Positions 8,826 to 53,411 of a DNA stretch of 64,000 bases are shown one piece after another (within the stretch, counting starts at the first letter, position 1; each line of letters opens with the position of its first letter). The position numbers were made by a program, and so were the translations under genes. The notes below the pieces were generated by a model. That model was given only the letters and a program-made list of their open reading frames with translations, searched no databases and was not told the origin of the DNA. The DNA is from Deltaproteobacteria bacterium (GTDB taxonomy: Bacteria; Desulfobacterota; Syntrophia; Syntrophales; UBA8958): positions 6,638-70,637 of the forward strand of contig JAKQIZ010000078.1 in NCBI GenBank assembly GCA_029561465.1. Reading direction: 5' to 3'.

Positions 8826-9806
8826 TCAGAGGATACTCCGAACGGCCTGGATGATGTCCGTGCTGTTACGGTAATAGGCATTCTCCAGGGCGGTGCTGGC
8901 GGGGGCCGGACAATCGGGCAGGGTGACCCGTGCCACGGGTGCCCGCAGGGCCCCGAAGGCCCTCTCCGCCGCGAGGGCGGAAATTTCCGCCGCCACGCCA
9001 AAGGACCGCCAGCCGCCGTCGGCAACGACGAGCCGGCCGGTTTTCTTTACCGAGGCCAGCAGGGTTTCTCCATCCAGGGGCTTTATCGTCCGGAGATCGA
9101 TTATTTCCGCCGCGATCCCGGCCTCGGCCAACAGTTCCGATGCCTGGAGGGCCTCCTGAACCATAAACGACGAAGCCGCCACGGTTACATCCGTCCCCTC
9201 CCGGACAATTCTGGCCCGGCCGATCTCCACGGTATAGATCTCTTCCGGCACCGGTTCCTCAAGCCGATACAGCCAGCGGTCGTCGATGAAGACCACCGGA
9301 TTCGACTCCCGGATCGCCGCCACCATCAATCCCTTGGCGTCATAGGGGGTGGCGGGCATGACCACCTTCAACCCCGGCGCCTGGGCGAACATGCCGTGCA
9401 GGGCCTGGGAGTGCTGGGCCGCCTGTTCGCCGCCCCGGTTGAGAATCCCCCAGAAGACAACGGGTACGGGCAGGCTGCCGCCGCTCATGTAATACCAGTT
9501 CGCCGCTTCGTTGATGATGGGATCGAAGGCATAAAACATGAAATCCATACGGGGATGGACGACGACGGGCCGCATCCCCGCCAGGGCCGCCCCGACCGCG
9601 GCGCCGGTCATGGCGTTTTCGGATACCGGGGTGTCGATGACCCGTTCGTCGCCGAAGCGCTCCCGCAAGCCCTGAGCGGTGTTGCCCACATACCAGGGGC
9701 TTTTCACCCCCTGGCCGATGAGAAATACCGCGGGGTCCGCCGCCATCGTCTGATGGAGGGCTTCATTTATCGCCAGGCTGTAACTCAGGATTCTATGCGA
9801 AGACAT
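8826..9806 (-). CDS. TPP-dependent 2-oxoacid dehydrogenase E1 component, beta subunit (transketolase-like)
   Basis: LIGQGV, DTPVSENAMTGAAVGAALAGMRPVV and a transketolase C-terminal-like tail. ATG 9806 (MSSHRILSY) is chosen and overlaps the E1-alpha stop by 14 nt. Confidence 0.85.
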   Translation of the reverse strand: MSSHRILSYSLAINEALHQTMAADPAVFLIGQGVKSPWYVGNTAQGLRERFGDERVIDTPVSENAMTGAAVGAALAGMRPVVVHPRMDFMFYAFDPIINEAANWYYMSGGSLPVPVVFWGILNRGGEQAAQHSQALHGMFAQAPGLKVVMPATPYDAKGLMVAAIRESNPVVFIDDRWLYRLEEPVPEEIYTVEIGRARIVREGTDVTVAASSFMVQEALQASELLAEAGIAAEIIDLRTIKPLDGETLLASVKKTGRLVVADGGWRSFGVAAEISALAAERAFGALRAPVARVTLPDCPAPASTALENAYYRNSTDIIQAVRSIL

Positions 9807-10770
9807 ATCTTTCCAGCTCCTCTGTCTTGGGATGGGCGCCGGCTCTGGCAAAAGCGAACGCCTCTTCTACCTCCGCTTCAACTTCCGCCCTTATTCCGTC
9901 CAATTCCCCGGAAGAAAAAAGCCCCCCCGCCAGAAGATAATCGCGCAGCAGTATCAGCGGATCCTTTTTCATCCAGATGTCTATTTCCTCCGGGGGACGG
10001 ATATCGGTATGCTCCCCCTGGATATTGTCATCCGGGCCGACATGGCCTCGATAACGATAGGTCAAAAACTCCAGAAACACGGGACCTGCGCCACGACGGC
10101 ACTTTTCCGCCGCCGCGGTTGCCGCGTCGTAAACGGCCAGCACGTCGTTGCCTTCCACCTGCCGGCTTTCGATACCGAAGGGTGCCGCGATTTCAAAGAT
10201 ATCCCGATCCACTCGACATTCCCGGACCGGCATGTGGGTGGCATAGTAATTGTTTTCACAAACGAAAAGGATCGGCAGCTTCTTCAGGGCAGCAAAGTTC
10301 ATGCTTTCGTAAAGCACCCCCTCCCCCGTGGCCCCGTCACCGAAAAACGTCACGGCCACACGGCCGTCCCTCCTGATGACCGACGCCAGGGCCGCTCCCA
10401 GGGCCAGGGAGATCGTCCCCGCAACGATCGGCGCCGCCCCCAGCATGCCCACTTCCGGGGCGATGAGGTGCATGGATCCCCCGCGTCCCCGGGAACATCC
10501 CTCCTCCCGGCAGAAGATCTCCGCCGCCATCTTCTCCATGGAACCGCCCTTGGCCAGATAATGCCCGTGGGAGCGGTGGTTCCCGAAGACATAATCCCCA
10601 TCGGTCAGGGCCGCGCAGACACCCACGGCGACCCCTTCCTCTCCGCTGTACAGATGGCAGGGGCAGCGAATTTCGCCGCTGAGGATCGGCGCCACAAAGG
10701 TCTCCTCACAGAGGCGAATCCGCAGCATCCGACGGTAAAAATCTTTCAAGAGTTCACGCGAATATTTCAC
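9793..10770 (-). CDS. TPP-dependent 2-oxoacid dehydrogenase E1 component, alpha subunit
   Basis: TPP-binding motif GDGATGEGVLYESMNFAALKKLPILFVCENN. GTG start at 10770, preceded by GGAGG. Confidence 0.85.
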   Translation of the reverse strand: MKYSRELLKDFYRRMLRIRLCEETFVAPILSGEIRCPCHLYSGEEGVAVGVCAALTDGDYVFGNHRSHGHYLAKGGSMEKMAAEIFCREEGCSRGRGGSMHLIAPEVGMLGAAPIVAGTISLALGAALASVIRRDGRVAVTFFGDGATGEGVLYESMNFAALKKLPILFVCENNYYATHMPVRECRVDRDIFEIAAPFGIESRQVEGNDVLAVYDAATAAAEKCRRGAGPVFLEFLTYRYRGHVGPDDNIQGEHTDIRPPEEIDIWMKKDPLILLRDYLLAGGLFSSGELDGIRAEVEAEVEEAFAFARAGAHPKTEELERYVFA

Positions 10771-15305: not shown

Positions 15306-15992
15306 TTAAGAAGGGATCTTTTCGAGCAGCAAGAGGACTTCCGATGACAGCATCGGAACGACCGGCATTATCTTCCTGATGGCCAATCCTTCCCTATGCA
15401 CCTCCCGCCGCAATTCTTCCCTCTTCAGCGGATAGGGCGCAAACCGATGGCATTGGTTGGCAAACCTCACCATCCGGCGCTTGAAACGCTGGGCGGGACT
15501 ATCCAGGCTGTAAGAAAGGATGAGGAATCTTTCGGTGAGGCGGCAAAGCGCCCGGAGCGACTCCGCCCTGATCAGGGGAGGGACACGATGCATGAAACCC
15601 AGCACGACGACGCATCCATAGGCATCGTTTTTGAAGGGCGGACAGGTAATGTCGGCCTGCACGAATCCTCGGCATTGTCCCTTTTTGTAAGCATAAACAG
15701 CGAGCCGCATCATCTCCCGGGATATATCGGCCGCCACGACCCGGAAGGGAAATTCAGCGAGCGTCTCAGCCAAAACACCCGTGCCGCAGGGAATATCGAG
15801 AATGATTTCTTGCGGCCCCAGGTCACATAACCTGAGCAGCGCCGCGACTCCGCGCTTCTCTCTCGCCGTGGCAAAACGGGCCCAAGTAAGTTGATCCGTA
15901 TGTTGCCGCCGGTATTCAGCCGCTTTGTAACGATCCCGGTAAGCCCGGCGCGTCTGCCGTTCATAATCGCTTTCCGGCACCGAGCCCTTCAA
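15306..15992 (-). CDS. class I SAM-dependent methyltransferase
   Basis: Motif I ILDIPCGTGVLAE. The start codon is TTG (15992) or GTG (15980). There is no nearby in-frame ATG. Confidence 0.75.
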   Translation of the reverse strand: MKGSVPESDYERQTRRAYRDRYKAAEYRRQHTDQLTWARFATAREKRGVAALLRLCDLGPQEIILDIPCGTGVLAETLAEFPFRVVAADISREMMRLAVYAYKKGQCRGFVQADITCPPFKNDAYGCVVVLGFMHRVPPLIRAESLRALCRLTERFLILSYSLDSPAQRFKRRMVRFANQCHRFAPYPLKREELRREVHREGLAIRKIMPVVPMLSSEVLLLLEKIPS

Positions 15993-17052
15993 CCTCCCTG
16001 CGCAATTGTTCCTTATAGAATGGATCGATGTACGTCTTTCGCAAAATCATCTTGATCAGACCGGGCCACGTTTTCAAATCCAGGGCGACATTCGCCAAAT
16101 ACCAGTGTTTAAGAAGCTCCTTGATGATTAGAAGCCCAAGAAGCCTGCTTTGGTGAGGAATCTCATCCCCATAGTAACCGTCAAGAAACCTCTTTTCGTA
16201 CTGATATCCCGGACTGAGACGCAGAAACAGCAAAGGGGTTCCCCAGAAGATGATCCGACAGGTCACAATGAATCGCGCCAGATCCGCCTCGGGAAAATCC
16301 ACCTTGCTTTTCCCGGGGTCAAGGATAAAACATCTGCCGTTGCCATCGGCAAGGATATTTCTGATATCCAACCCTTTGAGGGTTAAAGCGGCTCCGGCAC
16401 CTCCGGTGGGAGCTCCCATCGCTTTCAGGACGCGGTCCAATTGATCCAGAAATTTCCTTTCCCGACCGCGGGACTGGAGTCGGCACAAATATTTATCGAT
16501 CTTGTGAAAAGTCTCGTACGGCACCGTCGCCATTCTCTTTTCCGAGGCGCGATGGTAAAAACGAACCGTTTTCCCCAAGCGATCGAGGCAATCATCCATA
16601 AAATCCGCTTGACCTCGGGGATCGATCCGCTTGCGCAATGCGCAACGACGGAAAGATGCCAATATGGGCCTCCCGGCGACCCTTTCCGTTACAATGGCAT
16701 TATCGTCCGCCAGATAGGCAACCGGTTTGACAAAGGCCACCGCCAGGCTGTCGGGTAGATCGAGCTTCGCTAACGACGAAAGGCTGTCGTATTCATTTTT
16801 CCCGAGGGCCCTGTCCGCTTGAGACAAGGGGCAAATATTCCTTGCTTCCTTTTTATGCAGATCCATTTTGGGTATCTTGACGTAGTATCCTCTTCCCCTC
16901 TCGTCACCCCTTTTTTCCAGCCAGAAGCAGACGGAAAAATCATTGATTTCCAACGGCCCGACGCATATTCCGTTGTCGGGATCCGTATTCGGCCAGATCC
17001 GCCGGGCCACTCGCCTTGACAGCGAGGAACGGACTTCCGCATTGGTGAGCAT
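15961..17052 (-). CDS. hypothetical protein, possibly protein-kinase-like/LPS-kinase-like fold
   Basis: GRGYYVKIPK (Gly-rich loop plus Lys), LDIRNIL (catalytic-loop-like but with atypical D-N spacing), ILDPG (DFG-like). Coding is likely; the function is weakly supported. Confidence 0.5.
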   Translation of the reverse strand: MLTNAEVRSSLSRRVARRIWPNTDPDNGICVGPLEINDFSVCFWLEKRGDERGRGYYVKIPKMDLHKKEARNICPLSQADRALGKNEYDSLSSLAKLDLPDSLAVAFVKPVAYLADDNAIVTERVAGRPILASFRRCALRKRIDPRGQADFMDDCLDRLGKTVRFYHRASEKRMATVPYETFHKIDKYLCRLQSRGRERKFLDQLDRVLKAMGAPTGGAGAALTLKGLDIRNILADGNGRCFILDPGKSKVDFPEADLARFIVTCRIIFWGTPLLFLRLSPGYQYEKRFLDGYYGDEIPHQSRLLGLLIIKELLKHWYLANVALDLKTWPGLIKMILRKTYIDPFYKEQLRREVEGLGAGKRL

Positions 17053-17134: not shown

Positions 17135-17677
17135 TCAGGAAGAGAACTCCTGCCACTTTTCATTGACAAAACCGTACAACGCCGCCGTCGACTGTTCGAT
17201 AGTCTCGATGCGGGAATCGATTGTCAGGTCGGGAGAATCCGGCGGCTCGTAAATATTGGAGGGAGAAAAACCGATGAGGTTGTTCAGCTTGTTTTCCCGG
17301 GCCAGTTTGTATAGCCCCTTGACGTCGCGCCGCATGACGGTGTCAAGATCGGCGGCGAAGAATATCTCATAAAAACGGTCGCCCAGAAGAGAACGGGCAT
17401 GCGCCCGAGATGATTGGTAAGGGGAGATGATGGGAACCAGGATGATATCGTAACCGCCGCTCGCTTCCAGACAAAGATCCGCGATCAGCCGGTTGTTTTC
17501 GATTATATCCGCCACTGAGAATCCGAGCTGGATGTGCAGCCGGTTCCGGACATCATCGCCGTCCAGGATGAGCACCGTCCTGCCGGCTGCCTCCAAACGG
17601 CTTTTGACGGCGGTGGCGACGGTGGTCTTTCCCGAACCGGAAAGGCCGGTGAACCAAAACACGAGCGCCGTTTTCAT
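17135..17677 (-). CDS. cysC: adenylyl-sulfate (APS) kinase
   Basis: P-loop FTGLSGSGKTT, LDGDDVR, 180 aa. ATG 17677 forms an ATGA overlap with the upstream stop. The longer ORF start at 17854 is rejected. Confidence 0.9.
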   Translation of the reverse strand: MKTALVFWFTGLSGSGKTTVATAVKSRLEAAGRTVLILDGDDVRNRLHIQLGFSVADIIENNRLIADLCLEASGGYDIILVPIISPYQSSRAHARSLLGDRFYEIFFAADLDTVMRRDVKGLYKLARENKLNNLIGFSPSNIYEPPDSPDLTIDSRIETIEQSTAALYGFVNEKWQEFSS

Positions 17678-19941
17678 GCCACGAACACTTCCTTCCCCTC
17701 CCGCGCCTCCCGGATGATGAGCTCCGAAATCTCCTTGCGCATGAACCACTCCGGAGGGCGCTTTCCCCTGGCAAGCATTTTTCGGCCGGCCGTACCGCTG
17801 ATGTTGAGTAGATGGTCGTCGCCATGCCGGCATTGTTCCACATATTCGTGGCATGCCTCACAGTAATGCTGGGTAGGGAAAAACAGCGGCACGATCCCGA
17901 GATCACCGACGCGTTCGAAAAGTCGCTCCACGTCCCCGGGTTGGTAATAGTCCCCCACCCCGGTATGATCCCTGCCGACAATGAAATGACTGCAACCAAA
18001 ATTCTTTCGACACAGGGCCGTAAAAACAGCCTCGCGGGGGCCGGCGTAGCGGGAATAATTCTGAAACGCCCCGATCATGACCTTTCCGGGCGGATAGTAT
18101 TTTTGGATCATGAGCTCATAGCCTCTGATGATGACGTCGAAGTTGTAATCCCCCTTTTTCTTGGGACCGGCGACGGGGTGGGCGAAGAGGCCGTCGCAAT
18201 GGGTCCGCTCCAGGGCCAGCCTTTGGATATGCTCGTGGGCGCAATGGATTACGTTACGGGTATGGAAGCCGACCACCTTGCTCCAACCCCGGTGCGCGAA
18301 GATCGTCCGTACCTGCCGGGGCGTGAGTTCGTAATGTTTGTATGGGGAAGGCAATCTCCGGACCAGTTGCACCGGTCCCCCTAAGAACCATTCGCCCCGT
18401 TGGTACAAAAGCGCCACCCCGGGGTGATTGCGGTCCGTGACCCCAAAGGTATCCCTGGCCGTCTGTTCCAGGTCCGGTTTGAAGATCTGTTGGATGTCCA
18501 TGGTGGCATAGATTTCCTTGGTGCCTTTGAGCCGCAGGGCGACCTTATCCCCGGCACGAAGCTTCCCGGCCATTTTCCCGGGTACCTGCAATACTATTGG
18601 TAAAGGCCATATCACCCCGCTGGGAAGGCGATATTCCCTCAATACCGTCTCCATTTCCTCCTTGGTCATAAATCCCGTCAAGGGGGAAAAGGTGCCCAGG
18701 GCAATTTGCTCGGCGCTCATCAGGACCGATACATCGACATCCAGCGGGATTAATCCGGCCATTTCTTCCGGCGCCGGGTTTTCCTGCCAGGCATTCACCA
18801 GTCTGCCGCCGTGCGGTTCGATCAGCAGCAAGGAGCCCTTGCCGTCTAGATCCGGAAGGAAGGTATTGTTCAGGTGCTCATCATACTGTTGGATCATCTT
18901 GCGGACCATCATGGCACAATGCACCGGATAGGACCCGATGGCCGTTTCCGCGGCCAGAACCAAGCCATCCGCCCCGTCGCACAGGGTATTGAAAATGTCG
19001 TTTACTTCGGCCCGGGTGGGGTTTGATGATTTGACCATGGACTCCAAGAGGTTGGTGGCCACGTAAACCTTAACCCCCACCTTTTTTGCCCTGCTGATAA
19101 TCAGTTTTTGCATCCGCGGGATCATGTCGATGGGCACCTGCCGGGACAGATCGCCCCGATCTATGAGGAGGGCATCCGATTTTTCAGCAATCTCTTTCAG
19201 GTTACGAAAGCCTGCCGTCGATTCGATTTTCGAGATGACACGGGTGTCCTCACCCACATGGCGGCGAATCACATCCACATCCGCACCGCGATTGGCGAAC
19301 GACAGCGCCGCGTGCCTGAGGCCGTATCGCTGTCCTATCTCCAGGGCCTGCCGGTCCTTCTCCGTCAGAACCGGCAACAGGACGTCGCGATTCAGGATCG
19401 TGACGGCCTTGTTCGGACCGACCCGGCCGCCGATCAGTATCTTCAGCCGGAGGCCCGGAGCGGAATTCTCGACGATCTGGGCCAGAACGGAGTTGAAATC
19501 GATGCTGACCAGGTCTCCCTCCACAAAGAAGGAGGCTATATCGGGAGGATAGAAGCTGAGCTGCGGGGCATCGCTTCTTCCCCCGCCGCCGGGGATCAAG
19601 AGCATCTCGTTCTCCGGCAGGTGCAGGGTCTCCCCCGCCATGTCGCCGGTCCTTATCTGCGCCCCTTCGGTATCCAGGCAGATGGGCAAAGATGTCCGCT
19701 CCTGAATGAAACCGATGATTCCCGGTAAATCATCAATCTTGGTGTGGGACAGGTTGATCCGCAGCAGATCCACACCGAGTTCGGCAAGCCGCGCCAGGGT
19801 GTAATCATTCAGGGAAGCCGGTCCCAAGGTGCAGAGAATCTCTTTTTTGTCTTTATGGTCTTTATGGTCTTTATGGTCTTTCTTCAAATCTTCCTTCCTT
19901 TCAAAGGTCAGACGGCCTCGTGACGCCCACTGCCCCGACAA
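17674..19941 (-). CDS. fusion protein: pyruvate-kinase-like barrel domain (aa ~34-352) plus ATP sulfurylase / sulfate adenylyltransferase (aa ~371-755)
   Basis: PK motifs ILCTLGPAS, LRINLSH, ISKIES, LIDRGDL, NPTRAEVND, VLAAETA. Sulfurylase motifs LIEPHGG, HTRNVIHCAHE, HPVAGPKKKGD, GRDHTGVG. The start is TTG 19941. An alternative TTG at 19887 is preceded by AGGAAGGAAG. Confidence 0.85.
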   Translation of the reverse strand: MSGQWASRGRLTFERKEDLKKDHKDHKDHKDKKEILCTLGPASLNDYTLARLAELGVDLLRINLSHTKIDDLPGIIGFIQERTSLPICLDTEGAQIRTGDMAGETLHLPENEMLLIPGGGGRSDAPQLSFYPPDIASFFVEGDLVSIDFNSVLAQIVENSAPGLRLKILIGGRVGPNKAVTILNRDVLLPVLTEKDRQALEIGQRYGLRHAALSFANRGADVDVIRRHVGEDTRVISKIESTAGFRNLKEIAEKSDALLIDRGDLSRQVPIDMIPRMQKLIISRAKKVGVKVYVATNLLESMVKSSNPTRAEVNDIFNTLCDGADGLVLAAETAIGSYPVHCAMMVRKMIQQYDEHLNNTFLPDLDGKGSLLLIEPHGGRLVNAWQENPAPEEMAGLIPLDVDVSVLMSAEQIALGTFSPLTGFMTKEEMETVLREYRLPSGVIWPLPIVLQVPGKMAGKLRAGDKVALRLKGTKEIYATMDIQQIFKPDLEQTARDTFGVTDRNHPGVALLYQRGEWFLGGPVQLVRRLPSPYKHYELTPRQVRTIFAHRGWSKVVGFHTRNVIHCAHEHIQRLALERTHCDGLFAHPVAGPKKKGDYNFDVIIRGYELMIQKYYPPGKVMIGAFQNYSRYAGPREAVFTALCRKNFGCSHFIVGRDHTGVGDYYQPGDVERLFERVGDLGIVPLFFPTQHYCEACHEYVEQCRHGDDHLLNISGTAGRKMLARGKRPPEWFMRKEISELIIREAREGKEVFVA
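19851..19877 (-). repeat. 3 x 9-bp perfect tandem repeat (CTTTATGGT) encoding (KDH)3 in the N-terminal tail of the fusion protein
   Basis: Read directly from the sequence. The protein track shows KDHKDHKDHKDKK. Confidence 0.95.
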
Positions 19942-19993: not shown

Positions 19994-20809
19994 CTAATTG
20001 TCCCGGCGCTTCACCTCAACTACATAATAGTCTTCGCAGCGACCGTAGGTTTGGTAGGTCTGCCGCATAAAAAGGATCAATAACAGGAGATAGAATACGA
20101 GATAGCCACAGAGGGCGATCTCGAGCCATCCCAAGACGGCCGCCAAAAGAAAAATGAGGGCCTGAAGTCCGCCGGTGGTTTCCAGATTCCGCACCAGGAG
20201 GTTGACGAGTTCCTTGATCGACATCCTTTGGTTACGGTCCTTCTCGTCCCACTGGGAAAAGGAGTCTCCGAATCTGATAAACAGCACCCGGTTCACCAGC
20301 CGCATGAGGAGCGAAATAACGGCGATGCCGGCGCCGGCGGCGAGGGAAAGGACCGCCGGAACGGAAACGGCAATTCCCATCGAGCCGAGGAATGCATCGA
20401 GGCTCCCTTCCGGCCAGAGGAAGACTCCCATGCCGAGCGCGAAAGGCAGAAAGGCGATGAGAACGACGCCGGCGGCATAGTCGAGGAAACCGCCAAAGTT
20501 GTCCCGCTTGCGCAGCGCCCTCGCCATGCTGCCATCCGTCACATCGACGGCCTCCCAAAACAGGACCATGACCAAGGCGGCAACCGCTCCCCCGGGACCA
20601 CCGAATGCTGCGGTAAAAACGATAACCCAGGAAAACAAAAAAGAGGCGAAGGTCACCTGCCGGGGCGTCAATCCCAGTTTCAGCGCCAGCCACGCCAGAT
20701 ACACCCCCGCGGGACGTACCATCATCATCAGTATATAACCGCGGAGGGCCGCACCGGAACCGACATTCCGCTTTCTGATCAGCTCGAGACCGATGTTGTC
20801 AGTTGACAT
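19994..20809 (-). CDS. integral membrane protein, CDP-alcohol phosphatidyltransferase-like
   Basis: Multiple hydrophobic segments. Motif DVTDGSMAR-x8-G-x3-D at aa 89-110 matches D-x2-DG-x2-AR-x8-G-x3-D. The final conserved Asp position is Gly. Confidence 0.65.
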   Translation of the reverse strand: MSTDNIGLELIRKRNVGSGAALRGYILMMMVRPAGVYLAWLALKLGLTPRQVTFASFLFSWVIVFTAAFGGPGGAVAALVMVLFWEAVDVTDGSMARALRKRDNFGGFLDYAAGVVLIAFLPFALGMGVFLWPEGSLDAFLGSMGIAVSVPAVLSLAAGAGIAVISLLMRLVNRVLFIRFGDSFSQWDEKDRNQRMSIKELVNLLVRNLETTGGLQALIFLLAAVLGWLEIALCGYLVFYLLLLILFMRQTYQTYGRCEDYYVVEVKRRDN

Positions 20810-32853: not shown

Positions 32854-33602
32854 TCGCCTCCGGCGACGGTAATGATCTCGCCCGTGATGAAATCCGCGTC
32901 ATCGGACATAAGATATTCAAAAGCGGCGGCGATTTCATTGGTCTTGCCCGCCCGTCCCAGGGGGATTTTGGCGATTCGTTCCTCCTGCTCCTCCTCGGTG
33001 CGACCCGTCCGCTGCTGGGGAGTCATGACAAAACCCGCCCGCACCCCGTTGATGCGGACGCCGGTCCTCGCTACTTCTCGCGCCAGACCGCGCATGGCAA
33101 TCTCCAAGGCCCCCTTGGCGGCGGCATAATGAATGGATCGGGAAGAACCGGCATACTTAGGGGCAATGGAACTCAAATAGACGATCCTGCCGAAGCCGGC
33201 GGCGATCATAGACGGGAGGGCGTGTGTCGCCAGGGTGTAAGCGGCCAGGCAATGTTGTCGGAAGATGGTTTCCCAATCCGCCCACTCCAGATCACGCCAC
33301 CCCTTCCAGCCTACGTCGCCGTGGCAGATGGCCAGGAGGTCCAGGGAGCCAAGCGCTTGGCGACATTCCGCCACCAGCCCGGAACAGGCCTTTTCGCTCC
33401 CCAGGTCGGCCTGAAAAATATGGCCCCGGTTGGCATCGATCCCCAGGTCCCGGCAGAGGCTCGCGACGGAACCGGGATTTTTAAAGCAATGCAATCCCAT
33501 GGTCGTTTCTTTCCGGGCCAGACGGCGGACCACCGCGGACCCGATGGCGCCGGAAGCGCCCACAACGAGACATGACCTTTGCCGCCCGTGCTCATTCTCC
33601 AT
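32850..33602 (-). CDS. short-chain dehydrogenase/reductase (SDR)
   Basis: CLVVGASGAIGSAV (TGxxxGxG-like) and YAAAKGA (YxxxK). 250 aa. Confidence 0.8.
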   Translation of the reverse strand: MENEHGRQRSCLVVGASGAIGSAVVRRLARKETTMGLHCFKNPGSVASLCRDLGIDANRGHIFQADLGSEKACSGLVAECRQALGSLDLLAICHGDVGWKGWRDLEWADWETIFRQHCLAAYTLATHALPSMIAAGFGRIVYLSSIAPKYAGSSRSIHYAAAKGALEIAMRGLAREVARTGVRINGVRAGFVMTPQQRTGRTEEEQEERIAKIPLGRAGKTNEIAAAFEYLMSDDADFITGEIITVAGGD

Positions 33603-34581
33603 TTTTCTTTACCTGCGTCGCCCGCCAGGGACATCCCCGGCATGCATCGAGAAGATGAGACTCTCCGCGCCTATGCATTTCCCTCGCTCGTTGCACCAGG
33701 GGATCATGCCAACATGAATATATATCCCGGTTCCGTACATTTCCCGGGGACAGAAGACGAAAATCATCGTTGTTACAGGGAATTATCGCCCCGTTCCATT
33801 CCACGGTCATCCGTTGCCAAAGCTGGGGGCAGGCCCATCCCGGATCGATCAGATTTTCATCCCGCTGCACGGCGTCCTTGTAGTCGATGGCGGCGGCCTC
33901 ATCACAGCGGTAGCGCCAATAATCACGGTACTCATCGAGATCTACATAGGGCAGACAGACCGTCTGGACCCTGACTTTGGGATGAGAACAGTTCCTTCTG
34001 ACCTTGAGATCCATCAATGTCTCTATATTCCTCGCAATACGATCATATTTGGCGCCTACCCGCTCCTTTTCAAAACGAACCGGGTCCACACCTTCCACGG
34101 AGATGGAAATGCGATCCAGGCCCGCCGCGATCAGTTTATCCGCCATATTCTCGGTAAGCAGCATGCCGTTGGAATTGAAATAGATGTCCACGATTCCCCT
34201 TTTCTTCGCATAGGCCACCATCTCCGCAATGCGGGGATTGAGCAGCGGCTCGCCGCGATAACTGAGTTTCACGCTCCATAACTGCCTTTCCTCCCCTTCA
34301 TCGATAATCTTCCGATATAGATCGAAGTCCATATCCCCCAACTGATCCCGGGAAAGCAGGGGCAGTTTGTCGCAAAAGGTGCAGCGAAGGTTGCAGCGGC
34401 TCGAGGCTTCGAGATCCAGGTGCACGGGAAATTCCCGGACCTGGAAGCGGGACGGATATGCCATCCAGCAATGCCGGTATTCGTCATAACGGGCCGTTCT
34501 GTCCTCCGGGTCCGACGAGCCCCAGAGGGAATAAAAATTGGCGTTGGCTTGCGCTTGAACTCTTTTTTCCATCCTGGTCAT
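33592..34581 (-). CDS. radical SAM protein with SPASM/twitch-type C-terminal Cys-rich domain
   Basis: CNLRCTFC (CX3CX2C). C-terminal cysteines in CPQLW...IPCNND...CRGCPW. Paralogous by eye to 40211..41227. Confidence 0.85.
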   Translation of the reverse strand: MTRMEKRVQAQANANFYSLWGSSDPEDRTARYDEYRHCWMAYPSRFQVREFPVHLDLEASSRCNLRCTFCDKLPLLSRDQLGDMDFDLYRKIIDEGEERQLWSVKLSYRGEPLLNPRIAEMVAYAKKRGIVDIYFNSNGMLLTENMADKLIAAGLDRISISVEGVDPVRFEKERVGAKYDRIARNIETLMDLKVRRNCSHPKVRVQTVCLPYVDLDEYRDYWRYRCDEAAAIDYKDAVQRDENLIDPGWACPQLWQRMTVEWNGAIIPCNNDDFRLLSPGNVRNRDIYSCWHDPLVQRAREMHRRGESHLLDACRGCPWRATQVKKNGE

Positions 34582-38728: not shown

Positions 38729-40195
38729 CTACACGCCGCGGCGATGGTAAACGGTCCGTAAACCCGCAAAGACGGATTCGGGAAGTATTTGCCGGAGATT
38801 TACGGCGAACAGCCGGACCAGGAGCGTCTTCAGATACAGCCGGTAATGGCCGCGGCGCCTCAGCCAGATCAGGTAGGGATCGTAGTGCACCTTCGCCACC
38901 AGACTGAGGAGCTCCCGGTCGGAAAAACCGGTAAGGTTGATAAACACCCCCCGCCGGTAGCCGAGCACGAATTCTTCCTTGTCCTTGATCAACCCGCGCT
39001 TTACGGCGTAGTCCCAAAGGGGCGTCTCGGGAAAGGGGATGGGGGTGTTGATGGAAAAAGACCACGTATCCAACCGTTTGAGAAAATCGATGGTTTCCTC
39101 CACGGTGGCCCGCGTTTCCGACGGAAAGCCGACGATGATCTCCGGGATGTTGATGATGCCCGCCTTCTTGGTCAGCAATCCCGTCTCCAGGGCCTTCTCC
39201 CGGGTGACCCCTTTCCTGATTTCCTTCAGGATGTCATTGGCCCCGCTTTCATAACCGTAATTGATCATGATGCAATTGACTTCCTTCAGCAACGAAAGGA
39301 TTTCAGCATCCACGTTATCGACCCGGGCGCTCAGGACAATCAGGGCGATGGGAAGCCCCTCCTTTTTCAGGGCGGCGCAGAACGCACGGATCCACGCTTT
39401 GCTGCCCGTGGTCAATTCATCGTTTATCTGAAAGACGTCCACGCCGTAAGTTTCGTGGAGATGCCTGATCATGGCGATCACATATCCGACGCTGTGCTGC
39501 CGCAGCCCCCGGTGATGACGATAGCAGAAGATGCACTTATGGGTGCAGCCCCGGGCCGTAATGATGGGAAACATGTACCGCTTCCCGGCCAGAACCTTCC
39601 GGACCGACTTGTTGACGTCGTCTTCGATCCGCAGATAGTGGGCAATCCATTTGTCCAGTGTTTCCAGATAATTTTCCATCTTCAGCAGGCCGTAGTGGGG
39701 CATGGGGATAGCGTCGAGATCCCTGATCTGCTCCTGATGCGCCGTCCGCCGGAGCTGTCCGTCCCGGAGGAAAGAAATCCCCGCCACCAAAGCGACATCG
39801 GCCTGGGCCTCCAGGGCCTGGATGAGATTGGGAAAGGAAATCTCCCCCTCGCCGTGGACCACGTAATCGACGCCGGCCCGGGTGAGGAGGAGATCGGCCA
39901 CGGAAGCGATCACCCCTCCGGCCACGATGGGAACGGCGGGAAAATCCTTTTTGATCAGGGCCACGAGTTCCTTGCACCGGCCGTAACTGGAGGTGATGCC
40001 CCCCATGCCGATCACCCCGGGGGCGAAATCCCTGATCATCCGGAGCAATTCATCATCCCGGAGGTCTTCCTTGACGAGATCGACGATCCGCACCTCGTGC
40101 CCCCGCCGGTGCGCGCTGCTCGCCGCATAGAGTAGCCCGAAGGGCACGGAACCGTCCCGTTCCCGGGTCGGCACTTCCATCATGAGAACTTTCAT
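38729..40195 (-). CDS. B12-binding-domain radical SAM enzyme (class B)
   Basis: N-terminal Rossmann-like B12-binding region (VRIVDL...VIGMGGITSS...VAGG). CTHKCIFC (CX3CX2C). Confidence 0.85.
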   Translation of the reverse strand: MKVLMMEVPTRERDGSVPFGLLYAASSAHRRGHEVRIVDLVKEDLRDDELLRMIRDFAPGVIGMGGITSSYGRCKELVALIKKDFPAVPIVAGGVIASVADLLLTRAGVDYVVHGEGEISFPNLIQALEAQADVALVAGISFLRDGQLRRTAHQEQIRDLDAIPMPHYGLLKMENYLETLDKWIAHYLRIEDDVNKSVRKVLAGKRYMFPIITARGCTHKCIFCYRHHRGLRQHSVGYVIAMIRHLHETYGVDVFQINDELTTGSKAWIRAFCAALKKEGLPIALIVLSARVDNVDAEILSLLKEVNCIMINYGYESGANDILKEIRKGVTREKALETGLLTKKAGIINIPEIIVGFPSETRATVEETIDFLKRLDTWSFSINTPIPFPETPLWDYAVKRGLIKDKEEFVLGYRRGVFINLTGFSDRELLSLVAKVHYDPYLIWLRRRGHYRLYLKTLLVRLFAVNLRQILPESVFAGLRTVYHRRGV

Positions 40196-40210
40196 GGCGT
40201 CATCAGCTAG

Positions 40211-41227
40211 CTATAGGAAGTTCAAGGCGCATTGTTTACAGATCTTGTTCCGGAAGTATTCGCCCTCCCGGTGCATCCGCCGCAACGCCTTCATTTTCTT
40301 GGCATTCCAGAGTTGATAAACGGACTCTTCCCCGGCATTGCCCATGGCCATCTGCAAGGAATAACCCAGGAGGCAACAGGGGAGGACCCGGCCATCGGTG
40401 AGGACCACGACGCGAAACCACGGCTGGGTGCACCGGAAATCGGGATTCTTGATCCTCTTCTCGCCCGGGGCGGGATTCAGTTCCCCCGCGTCGGGAAAGG
40501 CGCGGTTGTACTCCTGGATGGCGATGGCATCGACGCGCTCCGTCCAAAAGGCGGTAAAGTCATCCATTTCGTGTTCGTTTTCCTTCATCTTCACGAAACT
40601 CACCCGGGTGATGGGGAGTACCTTGCCCAGCTCTTGCTTACGTTTGCAGAAATACAGGATATTCTCCATTACCCGGGAAAAATTGGAACCGATCCGGATC
40701 TTGTCGTAGGTTGCTTCCGTAATCGCGTCGAGAGAGAAGTGTATCCGCGTCAACCCCGAATGGAGCAGCGCCTCCGTCTTCTCCCGATCGAGGAGGGTGG
40801 CGTTGGTGTTGATCATGATATCGAGGATGCCTTTTTGCTTTGCATAGGCGATGTAATCGAGAAGATTGCCGACCAGCAGGGGCTCCCCTTCCTGGTCCAG
40901 GCCGATGGAAGACAAGCCGTACTGAACGCCTTCCTCGATAACCCCCTTGAACAGATTGATATCCATGAGCCGCTGCCGCTGGGGATACCGGTCCTTGTGG
41001 GCATGGGTGCACATGATGCACCGGAGGTTGCACCCGAAGATCGTTTCGAAATCGATATGGATGGGATACTCCGGTTCGACGGCGAAGGCCGCCGCCGCCT
41101 CGAACCGCTCCCGATACCGGCGGAAATCTTCTCCGAGCTCCTCGCTGAGGATATCGTTGACATTGACGCGGTAACTGAACTGTTCCGTTTGTTTGGAGCT
41201 GTCCTGACGTGAGAATTTTTTTTCCAT
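40211..41227 (-). CDS. radical SAM protein with SPASM-type C-terminal domain
   Basis: CNLRCIMC (CX3CX2C). C-terminal CTQPW...LPCC...CKQC. Confidence 0.85.
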   Translation of the reverse strand: MEKKFSRQDSSKQTEQFSYRVNVNDILSEELGEDFRRYRERFEAAAAFAVEPEYPIHIDFETIFGCNLRCIMCTHAHKDRYPQRQRLMDINLFKGVIEEGVQYGLSSIGLDQEGEPLLVGNLLDYIAYAKQKGILDIMINTNATLLDREKTEALLHSGLTRIHFSLDAITEATYDKIRIGSNFSRVMENILYFCKRKQELGKVLPITRVSFVKMKENEHEMDDFTAFWTERVDAIAIQEYNRAFPDAGELNPAPGEKRIKNPDFRCTQPWFRVVVLTDGRVLPCCLLGYSLQMAMGNAGEESVYQLWNAKKMKALRRMHREGEYFRNKICKQCALNFL

Positions 41228-53218: not shown

Positions 53219-53411
53219 TGCCGGAAGGCTTTGCGTAACCGGGGTCCTTGCCTGACGCCGCCCCCAGGGACCGAACGATGGTGGAGATGCCGGTTTCCCC
53301 GCGCAAAAGGCAGGGAAAGACCCGGACATGACGCGAGACCTTTGCAAAACTCTGTTCCCGCCTCCATATTGTCATTCCTGCAAAAGCGGTAATCCAGTAT
53401 TATCAAGGAGT

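What the first reader, a model, noticed from the sequence alone, without database searches (positions are those of the whole stretch)
17674..19941. Pyruvate-kinase-like domain fused to ATP sulfurylase
This is one 755-aa ORF. Residues ~34-352 match the pyruvate kinase catalytic barrel by eye (ILCTLGPAS, LRINLSH, ISKIES, LIDRGDL, NPTRAEVND, VLAAETA). The K/E/D catalytic positions are retained, but the PK C-terminal allosteric domain is absent. Residues ~371-755 are an ATP sulfurylase (LIEPHGG, HTRNVIHCAHE, HPVAGPKKKGD, GRDHTGVG). APS kinase follows with an ATGA overlap.

Sulfate adenylylation is thermodynamically unfavourable. A fused PEP-dependent ATP-regenerating/ADP-scavenging domain could pull APS/PAPS formation. 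PEP is also the co-substrate of the two NeuB-type synthases in the locus.

The first sulfurylase motif deviates from the canonical QTRNPxHRxH (Q to H, P to V, R to C). The Gln contacts sulfate in studied enzymes, so a different anion substrate cannot be excluded.
Basis: partly seen in the sequence, partly recalled or inferred. Interest (0 to 1): 0.8.

Follow-up and report, generated by a model that had tools for sequence, protein, structure and literature searches.

The report
Pyruvate kinase fused to ATP sulfurylase
One gene joins the catalytic part of pyruvate kinase to the enzyme that activates sulfate, most likely so that phosphoenolpyruvate recharges ATP on the spot while the cell makes the sulfate donor PAPS for its surface sugars; the design is common in uncultured microbes, and I found no study of it.

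Summary
On the minus strand, 17674-19941 is one intact 755-codon ORF. It contains a pyruvate kinase barrel with B domain (Pfam E 8e-62, no C domain), a PUA_2 domain and an ATP-sulfurylase domain (E 3e-76). APS kinase follows through an ATGA overlap. It is not an assembly artefact. More than 120 full-length homologues share the architecture. About 100 of the best 150 50%-identity representatives span the domain junction.

All PK catalytic and cation-site residues are invariant across 123 homologues. Related proteins show PK-ATPS-APSK, PK-APSK, full PK-ATPS and an unfused APSK-ATPS-PK-CysQ operon. The commonest neighbours are sulfotransferases (20 of 33 loci) and APS kinase (21 of 33), in glycan loci.

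Best explanation, inferred and not assayed: a PEP-driven PAPS-synthesis module. PK turns the ADP from APS kinase back into ATP, as biochemists do in vitro.

Only Q-to-H in the sulfurylase motif marks the fused clade. It co-varies with GRDHAG to GRDH(T/S)G.

The window has no recognisable sulfotransferase. A conserved neighbour, a CDP-alcohol-phosphotransferase-like membrane protein lacking its fourth Asp, is a speculative candidate.

This is a new variant of a known kind, of moderate interest.

The parts
17674..19941 (-). Whole PK-PUA_2-ATP-sulfurylase ORF. 755 codons from the first TTG; stop included.
19885..19887 (-). Likelier start codon (TTG, codon 19), preceded by the Shine-Dalgarno-like aaggaaggaag. 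Gives a 737-aa protein, matching homologue lengths.
19841..19881 (-). In-frame 9-bp tandem repeat (4.6 copies) encoding the (KDH)n N-terminal tail. Absent from homologues.
18919..19848 (-). Pyruvate kinase A (barrel) plus B (lid) domains, aa 32-341. No C-terminal allosteric domain.
   Evidence: Pfam PF00224 E 8e-62; PDB PKs E 1e-45 to 4e-49; Foldseek
19222..19230 (-). Codons K238-I-E240, equivalent to rabbit PK K269/E271 (catalytic Lys and Mg ligand). Invariant in 123 of 123 homologues.
19150..19152 (-). Codon D264, equivalent to rabbit PK D295 (Mg ligand). Invariant.
18823..18918 (-). Linker of about 32 aa between the PK barrel and PUA_2. Variable in length and sequence among homologues and of lower pLDDT.
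18358..18822 (-). PUA_2 (ATP sulfurylase domain I), aa 374-528.
   Evidence: Pfam PF14306 E 6e-40
17710..18336 (-). ATP-sulfurylase catalytic domain, aa 536-744.
   Evidence: Pfam PF01747 E 3e-76; NCBIfam NF003166 and TIGR00339 above cut-off; 8a8d TM 0.93
18232..18267 (-). Motif F-H-T-R-N-V-I-H-C-A-H-E, aa 559-570 (the QXRN and HXXH motifs). H560 replaces the sulfate-contacting Gln.
17959..17976 (-). Motif G-R-D-H-T-G, aa 656-661 (canonical GRDHAG). T660 co-varies with H560 in the fused clade.
17135..17677 (-). APS kinase, 180 aa. Its ATG overlaps the stop of the fusion gene (ATGA).
19994..20809 (-). CDP-alcohol-phosphotransferase-like membrane protein, 271 aa, 52 nt upstream. Signature DxxDGxxARx8GxxxDxxxG with the fourth Asp lost. 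Conserved partner of PK/ATPS/APSK genes in related loci; role unknown.

Best explanation
The gene encodes a bifunctional enzyme. Its N-terminal half is a catalytically competent pyruvate kinase made of the A and B domains only. The allosteric and tetramerising C domain is replaced by an ATP sulfurylase.

Together with the translationally coupled APS kinase, it forms a PEP-driven PAPS-synthesis module inside a surface-glycan locus. The proposed steps are:
1. ATP sulfurylase makes APS and PPi from ATP and sulfate.
2. APS kinase makes PAPS and ADP.
3. The PK domain converts that ADP back to ATP at the expense of PEP.

Step 3 would keep the local ATP/ADP ratio high. It would also prevent the dead-end enzyme-ADP-APS complex that throttles APS kinases, and so pull the unfavourable sulfate adenylylation forward. 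The PAPS then feeds sulfation of the glycan.

Shown here: domain identity, intact active-site residues, the conserved architecture and its gene context. Inferred: PK activity, coupling to APS kinase, and sulfate as the anion.
For: **Domains and fold**
- Pfam, NCBIfam and PDB sequence matches.
- AlphaFold model with pLDDT 90.3 and pTM 0.81. Its C half superposes on M. thermolithotrophicus ATPS (TM 0.93, rmsd 2.0 A). Its N half superposes on PK A+B domains.

**Active site**
- The equivalents of rabbit PK R72, N74, S76, H77, D112, T113, R119, K206, K269, E271, D295, T327 and E363 are invariant or nearly invariant in 123 homologues of 44-74% identity.

**Not an artefact**
- More than 120 full-length homologues come from independent assemblies.
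- About 100 of the best 150 50%-identity representatives span the PK/ATPS junction.

**Other ways PK is joined to the PAPS pathway**
- PK-PUA-ATPS-APSK (P0144, P0154, P0158, and 5 of 33 loci).
- PK-APSK without ATPS (P0240).
- Full PK with PK_C fused to ATPS (P0169).
- A stand-alone PK barrel next to APSK (L077).
- An unfused operon APSK-ATPS-PK(full length)-CysQ-like (L094).
- Sources.

**Neighbours**
- Among 117 genes flanking 33 fused loci, the top Pfam families are Sulfotransfer_3 (16), Sulfotransfer_1 (15) and APS_kinase (14).
- A sulfotransferase lies within the flanks in 20 of 33 loci.
- APSK is adjacent or fused in 21 of 33.

**Precedent**
- Adding PK and PEP was necessary for PAPS synthesis by human PAPSS1 in vitro, because it removes ADP and avoids the enzyme-ADP-APS dead-end complex (PMC9885120).
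Against: - No enzymatic data exist. I found no paper on the fusion.
- The PK domain carries family-specific changes near the active site: K114E, P116A, E117Q, S361A/G362A, DLG to DLS (rabbit numbering). It scores below the NCBIfam pyruvate-kinase equivalog cut-off, 255 against 306 bits.
- PK is fused to ATPS, which releases PPi, not ADP. The ADP producer is a separate protein in this window.
- 12 of 33 fused loci show no APS kinase in the DNA held, four of them with at least 8 kb downstream.
- The ATPS anion pocket is altered: H for Q, and T/S for A.
- The 64-kb window has no recognisable sulfotransferase.
Confidence: 0.65

Rival explanations
1. Altered chemistry. The PK-like domain and the remodelled ATPS pocket together handle a different substrate pair. 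Examples would be another oxyanion (selenate, thiosulfate, molybdate, a phosphate-like anion) or a non-ADP acceptor or donor.
For: - H replaces the sulfate-contacting Gln in 122 of 123 fused proteins and in 32 of 33 fused loci. It is Q in 51 of 52 stand-alone ATPS loci.
- This co-varies with GRDHAG to GRDH(T/S)G: 25 of 28 fused against 0 of 48 stand-alone.
- The role of Gln195 is described in PMC6607087.
- The PK domain has clade-specific substitutions at K114, E117 and S361.
Against: - All residues needed for canonical PK and ATPS catalysis are kept: HXXH, R, N, GRDH.
- The partners are APS kinase and PAPS-type sulfotransferases.
- An unfused operon uses a canonical Q-type ATPS and a canonical full-length PK with the same neighbours.
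- The fused ATPS domains are monophyletic in a neighbour-joining tree, so H/T may simply be inherited.
Confidence: 0.12
2. No functional coupling. The PK half is simply the organism's (or an extra) glycolytic pyruvate kinase that happens to be fused to ATPS. It makes ATP for the cell at large.
For: - The PK catalytic residues are intact.
- PK has no known specific role in sulfur metabolism.
Against: - Loss of the C domain removes the allosteric control and tetramer interface that housekeeping PKs have.
- The fusion sits in glycan loci next to APSK and sulfotransferases across bacteria and archaea, including Omnitrophota, Deltaproteobacteria, Nitrospina, Saccharibacteria and Woesearchaeota.
- Three other physical linkages of PK to PAPS genes exist.
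Confidence: 0.08
3. Regulatory or scaffolding domain. The PK-like half binds PEP or nucleotides, or only oligomerises, to gate or organise sulfate activation. It has little catalytic turnover.
For: - The C domain is lost and interface-region motifs are altered (SDVAN to NDIFN, DLG to DLS).
- pTM of 0.81 suggests a fixed PK-ATPS arrangement.
Against: - Invariance of the full catalytic set (K269, E271, D295, T327, R72, R119 and the K+ ligands) over about 45-75% sequence divergence is what purifying selection on catalysis predicts.
- The unfused operon with an ordinary full PK argues that PK activity is what is needed.
Confidence: 0.08
4. Assembly or gene-calling artefact joining two separate genes.
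For: None found. Gene callers do sometimes split the gene: the NCBI call P0210 starts at an internal Met of a 721-aa fused ORF.
Against: - The frame is continuous over 755 codons.
- An identical 755-aa protein occurs in an independent JGI contig.
- More than 120 homologues share the same three domains.
- 33 loci were retrieved with the fused ORF.
Confidence: 0.01

Closest known systems
Bifunctional PAPS synthases (ATP sulfurylase fused to APS kinase, e.g. human PAPSS1/2 and Aquifex aeolicus SAT/APSK, PDB 2gks)
   Same: - Both fuse sulfate-activation steps so that an unfavourable first reaction is pulled by the next one.
- The ATPS domain is homologous (2gks E 3e-61).
- Some relatives of the window protein also carry APS kinase at the C terminus.
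   Different: - The window protein adds a pyruvate kinase domain at the N terminus, which no solved or described PAPS synthase has. No PDB chain covers both halves.
- In this window, APS kinase is a separate, translationally coupled gene.
Stand-alone homo-oligomeric ATP sulfurylase (Sat), closest solved structure M. thermolithotrophicus MtATPS (PDB 8a8d/8a8g)
   Same: - 40% identity, TM 0.93, rmsd 2.0 A over about 390 columns.
- Same PUA_2, catalytic and domain III layout.
- HXXH, R, N and GRDH are kept.
- The QTRNV variant (V for P) is shared. MtATPS is active (PMC10322725).
   Different: - Gln of QXRN is His, and Ala of GRDHAG is Thr.
- An N-terminal PK fusion is present.
- The context is glycan sulfation, not assimilatory sulfate reduction.
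Canonical pyruvate kinase (e.g. E. coli PykF 1pky, P. aeruginosa 7oo1, rabbit muscle PK)
   Same: - A-domain barrel with inserted B lid.
- All catalytic, Mg and K+ ligands are conserved.
- E 1e-45 to 4e-49.
   Different: - It lacks the C-terminal alpha/beta domain (PF02887), which carries allosteric sites and the C-C tetramer interface.
- Clade-specific substitutions: DTEGAQIR for DTKGPEIR, LAAETA for LSGETA.
- It scores below the TIGR01064 cut-off.
Other energy-coupled or product-removing sulfate-activation systems: CysDN (GTPase-coupled) and ATPS-APSK-pyrophosphatase fusions of some algae
   Same: The same logic applies: an extra enzyme activity is attached to drive APS formation, which has an unfavourable equilibrium.
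   Different: The driver here would be PEP-dependent rephosphorylation of ADP, not GTP hydrolysis or PPi hydrolysis. One relative (P0178) carries an extra nucleotide-pyrophosphatase/phosphodiesterase-type domain.
In-vitro PAPS synthesis cascades with PK/PEP ATP regeneration (PMC9885120)
   Same: The enzyme set is the same (ATPS, APSK, PK). The stated purpose is to recycle ADP and avoid the APS kinase-ADP-APS dead-end complex.
   Different: That system was engineered from separate commercial enzymes. Here the combination is encoded naturally, in one polypeptide or operon.

Membership tests
Pyruvate kinase (EC 2.7.1.40; Pfam PF00224 + PF02887; NCBIfam TIGR01064) | (beta/alpha)8 A-domain barrel with inserted B domain | tested here: met
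   PF00224 E 8e-62, covering profile positions 3-326 of 328. The AlphaFold model aligns to PKs over about 350 columns at rmsd 3.3-4 A.
Pyruvate kinase (EC 2.7.1.40; Pfam PF00224 + PF02887; NCBIfam TIGR01064) | Catalytic and metal-binding residues (rabbit R72, R119, K269, E271, D295, T327, E363; K+ site N74, S76, D112, T113; B-domain K206) | tested here: met
   All are present in the window protein (alignment to PykF and others). They are invariant or at least 96% conserved in 123 homologues.
Pyruvate kinase (EC 2.7.1.40; Pfam PF00224 + PF02887; NCBIfam TIGR01064) | C-terminal alpha/beta (allosteric, tetramer-forming) domain PF02887 | tested here: not met
   There is no PK_C hit, and PUA_2 begins about 30 residues after the barrel. 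A relative, P0169, does keep PK_C.
Pyruvate kinase (EC 2.7.1.40; Pfam PF00224 + PF02887; NCBIfam TIGR01064) | Score above the curated equivalog cut-off | tested here: not met
   TIGR01064 scores 255.3 bits against a cut-off of 306.4. This is expected from the missing C domain.
Pyruvate kinase (EC 2.7.1.40; Pfam PF00224 + PF02887; NCBIfam TIGR01064) | Catalyses PEP + ADP to pyruvate + ATP | not testable with these tools
   Needs an enzyme assay.
ATP sulfurylase / sulfate adenylyltransferase, Sat type (EC 2.7.7.4; PF14306 + PF01747; TIGR00339, NF003166) | Profile scores above curated cut-offs, and the fold | tested here: met
   NF003166 scores 412.6 against 387, and TIGR00339 scores 340.8 against 322.95. 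Pfam E 3e-76 and 6e-40. TM 0.93 to 8a8d.
ATP sulfurylase / sulfate adenylyltransferase, Sat type (EC 2.7.7.4; PF14306 + PF01747; TIGR00339, NF003166) | HXXH motif and the Arg/Asn of QXRN | tested here: met
   H566 and H569 are invariant. R562 is present in 122 of 123 and N563 in 123 of 123.
ATP sulfurylase / sulfate adenylyltransferase, Sat type (EC 2.7.7.4; PF14306 + PF01747; TIGR00339, NF003166) | Gln of QXRN (contacts the sulfate of APS) and Ala of VGRDHAG | tested here: not met
   His is at the Gln position in 122 of 123 homologues. Thr or Ser is at the Ala position in 115 of 123. Stand-alone relatives have Q (51 of 52) and A (48 of 48). Motif definitions are from PMC6607087.
ATP sulfurylase / sulfate adenylyltransferase, Sat type (EC 2.7.7.4; PF14306 + PF01747; TIGR00339, NF003166) | Forms APS from ATP and sulfate | not testable with these tools
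   Inferred from the adjacent or fused APS kinase and the sulfotransferase neighbours.
PAPS synthase (fused ATPS + APS kinase) | ATPS and APS kinase on one polypeptide | tested here: not met
   In the window, APS kinase is a separate ORF overlapping by ATGA. It is fused in 5 of 33 related loci and in P0144, P0154 and P0158.
CDP-alcohol phosphotransferase (PF01066), for the neighbouring gene 19994-20809 | Signature D1xxD2GxxAR...GxxxD3xxxD4 and the transmembrane fold | tested here: not met
   The fold is consistent: best PDB match AF2299, TM 0.53, E 6e-4, with a weak Pfam hit at E 1e-5. D4 is Gly in all 15 homologues.

The most novel reading that the evidence does not exclude
The PK-ATPS(-APSK) proteins are a monophyletic, PEP-powered sulfate-activation machine with a remodelled anion pocket (His for Gln, Thr/Ser for Ala).

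In the window's lineage this machine does not serve a classical sulfotransferase. It serves the conserved neighbouring membrane protein of the CDP-alcohol-phosphotransferase fold, which lacks the fourth catalytic Asp. That protein would act as a new kind of membrane-embedded sulfotransferase.

The proposed chemistry has an acceptor hydroxyl on a lipid-linked glycan attack the sulfur of (P)APS. This is geometrically analogous to attack on the beta-phosphate of a CDP-alcohol.

Support is by association only:
- 8 of 9 contexts of this subfamily have PK and/or ATPS/APSK genes immediately adjacent.
- None of the contexts with several kilobases of flanking DNA (window, L011, L012, L094) shows a recognisable sulfotransferase. 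The other contigs are too short to tell.
Probability: 0.15. Interest if true: 0.85.

Novelty: new variant of a known kind. Interest (0 to 1): 0.55.

Why it matters
Sulfate activation is thermodynamically uphill. Known solutions are GTP hydrolysis (CysDN), fusion to APS kinase, and pyrophosphate removal.

A natural fusion to pyruvate kinase would be a further solution. It would tie PAPS supply directly to the glycolytic intermediate PEP. It appears in many uncultured lineages, including Omnitrophota, candidate-phyla-radiation bacteria and DPANN archaea, whose surface glycans are unknown.

It also points to widespread glycan sulfation in these groups.

In practice, PAPS supply limits the enzymatic synthesis of sulfated polysaccharides such as heparin and chondroitin sulfate. 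A single polypeptide, or a two-gene module, that makes PAPS from sulfate with PEP-driven ATP recycling would be a ready-made biocatalyst.

The His/Thr pocket offers a defined mutational test of what sets anion affinity in ATP sulfurylases.

Tried and rejected
1. **Plus-strand reading.** It is full of stops. The ORF is on the minus strand.
2. **Assembly artefact.** Rejected.
3. **The 363-aa ORF after APS kinase (15961-17052) as the missing sulfotransferase.**
   - It has no Pfam, NCBIfam or PHROG hit even at E of 1-10.
   - It has no similarity to the sulfotransferases next to homologues.
   - It carries a kinase-like motif, and it is absent from the syntenic relatives.
4. **tblastn of three neighbour sulfotransferases against the whole window.** Nothing significant.
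5. **Stand-alone H-type ATPS proteins (e.g. P0210).** The one examined is a truncated gene call of a fused 721-aa ORF.
6. **The PFR motif as a fused-clade difference.** Rejected, because prokaryotic stand-alone ATPS also lack the Arg.
7. **PK domain replacing APS kinase as a PEP-dependent 3'-kinase.** Rejected, because APS kinase is adjacent or fused in 21 of 33 loci and PK-APSK fusions exist.
8. **Iterated HMM search for APS kinase.** It became contaminated by fused proteins. I redid it by tblastn.
9. **Literature.** Five searches for the fusion and one for a link between CDP-alcohol transferases and PAPS found nothing relevant.


Full report
**Observation**

The finding's coordinates hold one intact ORF, but on the minus strand. 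It runs 17674-19941, 755 codons from a TTG, with the stop included. The plus-strand frame is full of stops.

Pfam places three domains on it:
- PK barrel (PF00224), residues 32-341, E 8e-62, profile positions 3-326 of 328.
- PUA_2 (PF14306), residues 374-528, E 6e-40.
- ATP-sulfurylase (PF01747), residues 536-744, E 3e-76.
- There is no PK_C (PF02887) hit.

NCBIfam agrees. The sulfurylase part passes the curated cut-offs of NF003166 (412.6 against 387) and TIGR00339. The PK part matches TIGR01064 strongly but stays below its cut-off (255 against 306). A protein lacking the C domain would be expected to do that.

PDB sequence searches give two sets of matches. The C half matches M. thermolithotrophicus ATPS at E 2e-95. 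The N half matches many pyruvate kinases at E 1e-45 to 4e-49.

The ATGA overlap with the next gene is real. The ATG at 17677 opens a 180-aa APS kinase that begins MKTALVFWFTGLSGSGKTT.

A likelier start for the fusion gene is the TTG at 19887. It lies just after aaggaaggaag and gives 737 aa, close to the 723-736 aa of homologues. The residues just downstream of that start are a (KDH)n tail encoded by a 9-bp tandem repeat at 19841-19881, which homologues lack.

**Not an artefact, and not rare**

A search of 5.8 billion proteins returned an identical 755-aa protein from another assembly. It also returned more than 120 full-length homologues at 52-75% identity, all with the same three Pfam domains. 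Where named, they are called only "sulfate adenylyltransferase", "ATP sulfurylase" or "pyruvate kinase". Sources include Omnitrophota, Deltaproteobacteria and Nitrospina MAGs.

Genome contigs add Saccharibacteria and Woesearchaeota MAGs. In the exhaustive search of 1.84 billion 50%-identity representatives, about 100 of the best 150 hits span the PK/ATPS junction in a single aligned stretch. About 50 of those are full length.

**Are both halves competent?**

I aligned the protein to E. coli PykF and other solved PKs. I then counted residues over a 123-sequence family alignment.

The equivalents of these rabbit-muscle PK residues are invariant or nearly so:
- R72, N74, S76 and H77.
- D112, T113 and R119.
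- K206 in the B domain.
- K269, E271, D295, T327 and E363.

The family also has its own signature. It reads DTEGAQIR where canonical PKs have DTKGPEIR, LAAETA for LSGETA, DLS for DLG, and NDIFN for SDVAN.

In the sulfurylase half, the HXXH histidines, the Arg and Asn of QXRN, and GRDH are conserved. The motif definitions come from PMC6607087.

An AlphaFold2 model built on 113 homologues is confident, with mean pLDDT 90.3 and pTM 0.81. Foldseek superposes its C half on MtATPS (TM 0.93, rmsd 2.0 A). It superposes its N half on PK A+B domains. No PDB chain covers both halves.

**The motif deviations**

- V for P also occurs in MtATPS (QTRNVPHLGHE), which is active in a coupled assay (PMC10322725).
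- C for R is found in only 4 of 123 homologues. The family consensus is R.
- H for Q is the real signature, present in 122 of 123 homologues.

Across retrieved loci, H occupies the position in 32 of 33 fused genes, while Q occupies it in 51 of 52 stand-alone ATPS genes. The one stand-alone exception lies at a contig end. One annotated stand-alone H-type protein, P0210, proved to be a truncated gene call of a 721-aa fused ORF.

H co-varies with a second pocket change. GRDHAG becomes GRDH(T/S)G in 25 of 28 fused genes, against 0 of 48 stand-alone genes. In yeast ATPS, Gln195 hydrogen-bonds the sulfate of APS. From my memory of the yeast structures, the backbone of Ala293 also contacts it.

In a neighbour-joining tree, the 48 sampled fused ATPS domains form one clade, apart from 52 stand-alone ones. 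This clade includes P0169, which carries a full PK. The H/T pair may therefore be inherited from a single fusion event. Its near-invariance over deep divergence still suggests constraint.

**What the PK domain is for**

Four lines of comparative evidence tie PK to PAPS synthesis specifically.

First, the domain combinations:
- PK-PUA-ATPS-APSK.
- PK-APSK with no ATPS (P0240).
- A complete PK with PK_C fused to an H-type ATPS (P0169).
- A nucleotide-pyrophosphatase-type domain in front of PK-ATPS (P0178).
- A stand-alone C-less PK barrel carrying the family signature, directly followed by APS kinase (L077).

Second, an unfused operon in L094. It reads APSK, then ATPS (canonical Q type with GRDHAG), then a full-length PK (PK+PK_C), then a CysQ-like Inositol_P-family phosphatase. 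APSK, ATPS and PK overlap one another; the phosphatase gene follows after a 135-nt gap. Ordinary PK chemistry has therefore been recruited to the same module independently.

Third, the neighbours:
- Among 117 genes flanking 33 fused loci, the commonest Pfam families are Sulfotransfer_3 (16), Sulfotransfer_1 (15) and APS_kinase (14).
- A sulfotransferase lies in the flanks of 20 of 33 loci, usually adjacent.
- APS kinase is adjacent or fused in 21 of 33.
- The loci are sugar and nonulosonate-type glycan clusters.

Fourth, a biochemical precedent (PMC9885120). With human PAPSS1 in vitro, PAPS hardly formed without a PK/PEP ATP-regeneration system. ADP accumulates and, together with APS, traps the APS kinase in a dead-end complex.

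**Best explanation**

My best explanation has confidence 0.65. The steps are:
1. ATPS makes APS and PPi.
2. The translationally coupled APS kinase makes PAPS and ADP.
3. The PK domain rephosphorylates that ADP with PEP.

Step 3 keeps ATP high and ADP low at the site, and so pulls sulfate activation forward for glycan sulfation. Replacing the allosteric C domain with ATPS would free the PK from glycolytic regulation and fix its stoichiometry to the sulfurylase.

Domain identity, residue conservation, architecture and context are shown here. The enzymatic activities, the coupling, and sulfate as the anion are inferred.

**Weak points**
- PK is fused to the PPi-releasing enzyme, not to the ADP-releasing one.
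- 12 of 33 loci show no APS kinase in the DNA held.
- The PK domain has unexplained clade-specific substitutions near the cation site, such as E117Q.
- The anion pocket is altered.
- The window itself contains no recognisable sulfotransferase.

**Rivals**
- Altered chemistry or a different anion, 0.12. The H/T pocket and the PK substitutions speak for it. The APS kinase and sulfotransferase partners, and the canonical unfused operon, speak against it.
- An uncoupled housekeeping PK, 0.08. The lost C domain and the consistent glycan-locus context speak against it.
- A regulatory or scaffolding domain, 0.08. The invariance of the whole catalytic set speaks against it.
- An artefact, 0.01.

Both NeuB genes exist, but PK would compete with them for PEP.

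**Surroundings**

The whole window is one minus-strand glycan locus. It contains:
- GT9 heptosyltransferases and GT1/GT4 glycosyltransferases.
- Two AsnB-type amidotransferases.
- Several DegT aminotransferases.
- Radical-SAM enzymes, three of them with B12-binding domains.
- Three CMP-sugar-type cytidylyltransferases.
- Two NeuB synthases.
- A flippase and an initiating sugar transferase.

The closest relatives (73-75% identity, L011 and L012) are syntenic. Their order is GDSL, GT1, AsnB, CDP-OH_P_transf-like, PK-ATPS, APSK, AsnB, GT1, methyltransferase, Bac_transf. The window additionally carries a 363-aa ORF with a kinase-like motif and a methyltransferase, inserted at 15306-17052.

**An unplanned lead: the upstream neighbour**

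No sulfotransferase is detectable anywhere in the window. The conserved neighbour is instead a 271-aa membrane protein at 19994-20809.

Its features:
- A weak CDP-alcohol-phosphotransferase profile match.
- A model matching AF2299 and PIP synthases.
- The signature DxxDGxxARx8GxxxDxxxG, with the fourth Asp replaced by Gly in all 15 homologues.

Of nine contexts seen for this subfamily, eight have PK and/or ATPS/APSK genes immediately adjacent. These are the window, L011, L012, L094, L095 and L096-L098. The remaining context, the P0280 contig, shows no such genes. None of the contexts with long flanks shows a sulfotransferase.

A more distant relative sits next to the PK-APSK fusion. In the unbiased set of 33 fused loci, 4 of the 5 that carry a CDP-alcohol-transferase-like gene lack a sulfotransferase.

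This suggests that the protein might be the consumer of activated sulfate, which would make it a membrane sulfotransferase of a new fold. It falls well short of proof. It could equally add a phospho-alcohol, unrelated to sulfate. No literature connects the two.

**Comparison with what is known, and novelty**

All three domains belong to well-known families. The protein passes the membership tests for Sat-type ATP sulfurylase except for the Gln and Ala pocket residues. It passes those for pyruvate kinase except for the C domain and the equivalog cut-off.

It works like a PAPS synthase with a built-in ATP-regeneration unit. Its closest conceptual relatives are:
- ATPS-APSK fusions.
- GTPase-coupled CysDN.
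- Pyrophosphatase-containing fusions. The last two are from my own knowledge.

Five full-text searches found no description of a PK-ATPS fusion. The sequences are already in public databases under generic names.

I rate it a new variant of a known kind, with interest 0.55. It is a plausible, testable and biotechnologically useful way of driving sulfate activation. It is widespread in poorly known lineages but built from ordinary parts.

Noticed in passing
window 19994-20809 (-); also L011 9078-9917, L012 8356-9201, L094 5012-5791, L095 1150-1920, L096-L098, L010 3752-4534: A CDP-alcohol-phosphotransferase-like membrane protein lacks the fourth signature Asp (Gly in 15 of 15 homologues). PK, ATPS or APSK genes lie immediately beside it in 8 of 9 contexts. 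None of the contexts with long flanks shows a sulfotransferase. It could be the consumer of the activated sulfate.
   Followed up: partly
whole window 1-64000: No Pfam-recognisable sulfotransferase lies anywhere in this 64-kb glycan locus, although it encodes a complete PAPS-synthesis module. 20 of 33 other PK-ATPS loci have one in the flanks, usually adjacent.
   Followed up: partly
window 15306-17052 (-): This segment holds a 363-aa ORF with no family hit but a protein-kinase/APH-like motif (YYVKIPK ... LDIRNILADGNGRCFILDPG), plus a 228-aa methyltransferase. It lies between APS kinase and AsnB and is absent from the syntenic relatives L011 and L012. GC content is slightly lower (0.51).
   Followed up: partly
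window 19841-19881 (-): An in-frame 9-bp tandem repeat (4.6 copies) encodes a KDHKDHKDHKD tail at the N terminus of the fusion protein. Homologues lack it. Copy-number changes would not shift the frame.
   Followed up: partly
L094 1048-5791: An unfused operon reads APS kinase, Q-type ATPS, full-length PK (DIPGRKIR, which looks like the K+-independent type), CysQ-like phosphatase, then the D4-less CDP-alcohol-transferase-like gene. PK appears to have been recruited to a PAPS module independently here.
   Followed up: partly
P0178, P0169, P0240 (search-derived proteins); L077 7154-9548: Further architectures exist:
- a nucleotide-pyrophosphatase/phosphodiesterase domain in front of PK-ATPS;
- PK with PK_C fused to ATPS;
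- PK fused to APS kinase;
- in L077, a PEP-mutase/isocitrate-lyase-family gene followed by a stand-alone C-less PK and APS kinase.
   Followed up: partly
window 51275-53347 (-); L007 12714-14861; L001 12235-14448: A 690-aa protein with no Pfam family is homologous (E 1e-8 to 1e-10 over its C-terminal half) to the unannotated roughly 715-740-aa gene that directly follows APS kinase in two distant PK-ATPS loci.
   Followed up: no
window 33592-34581, 38729-41227, 45399-47420, 53412-54905 (-): Five radical-SAM genes lie in one glycan locus: three with B12-binding or HAD-type N-terminal domains and two with SPASM domains. With them are three CMP-sugar-type cytidylyltransferases, two NeuB synthases and an MptE/Maf-like gene. 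This suggests heavily modified nonulosonic acids.
   Followed up: no
window 8826-10770 (-): A pair of thiamine-diphosphate E1-type genes (E1_dh alpha, then transketolase-like beta) is embedded in the glycan locus and conserved in the syntenic relatives.
   Followed up: no
L093 4978-7143: The public (NCBI) gene call P0210 starts at an internal Met and reports only the 380-aa ATPS part of a 721-aa fused ORF. Database counts of this architecture are therefore underestimates.
   Followed up: yes
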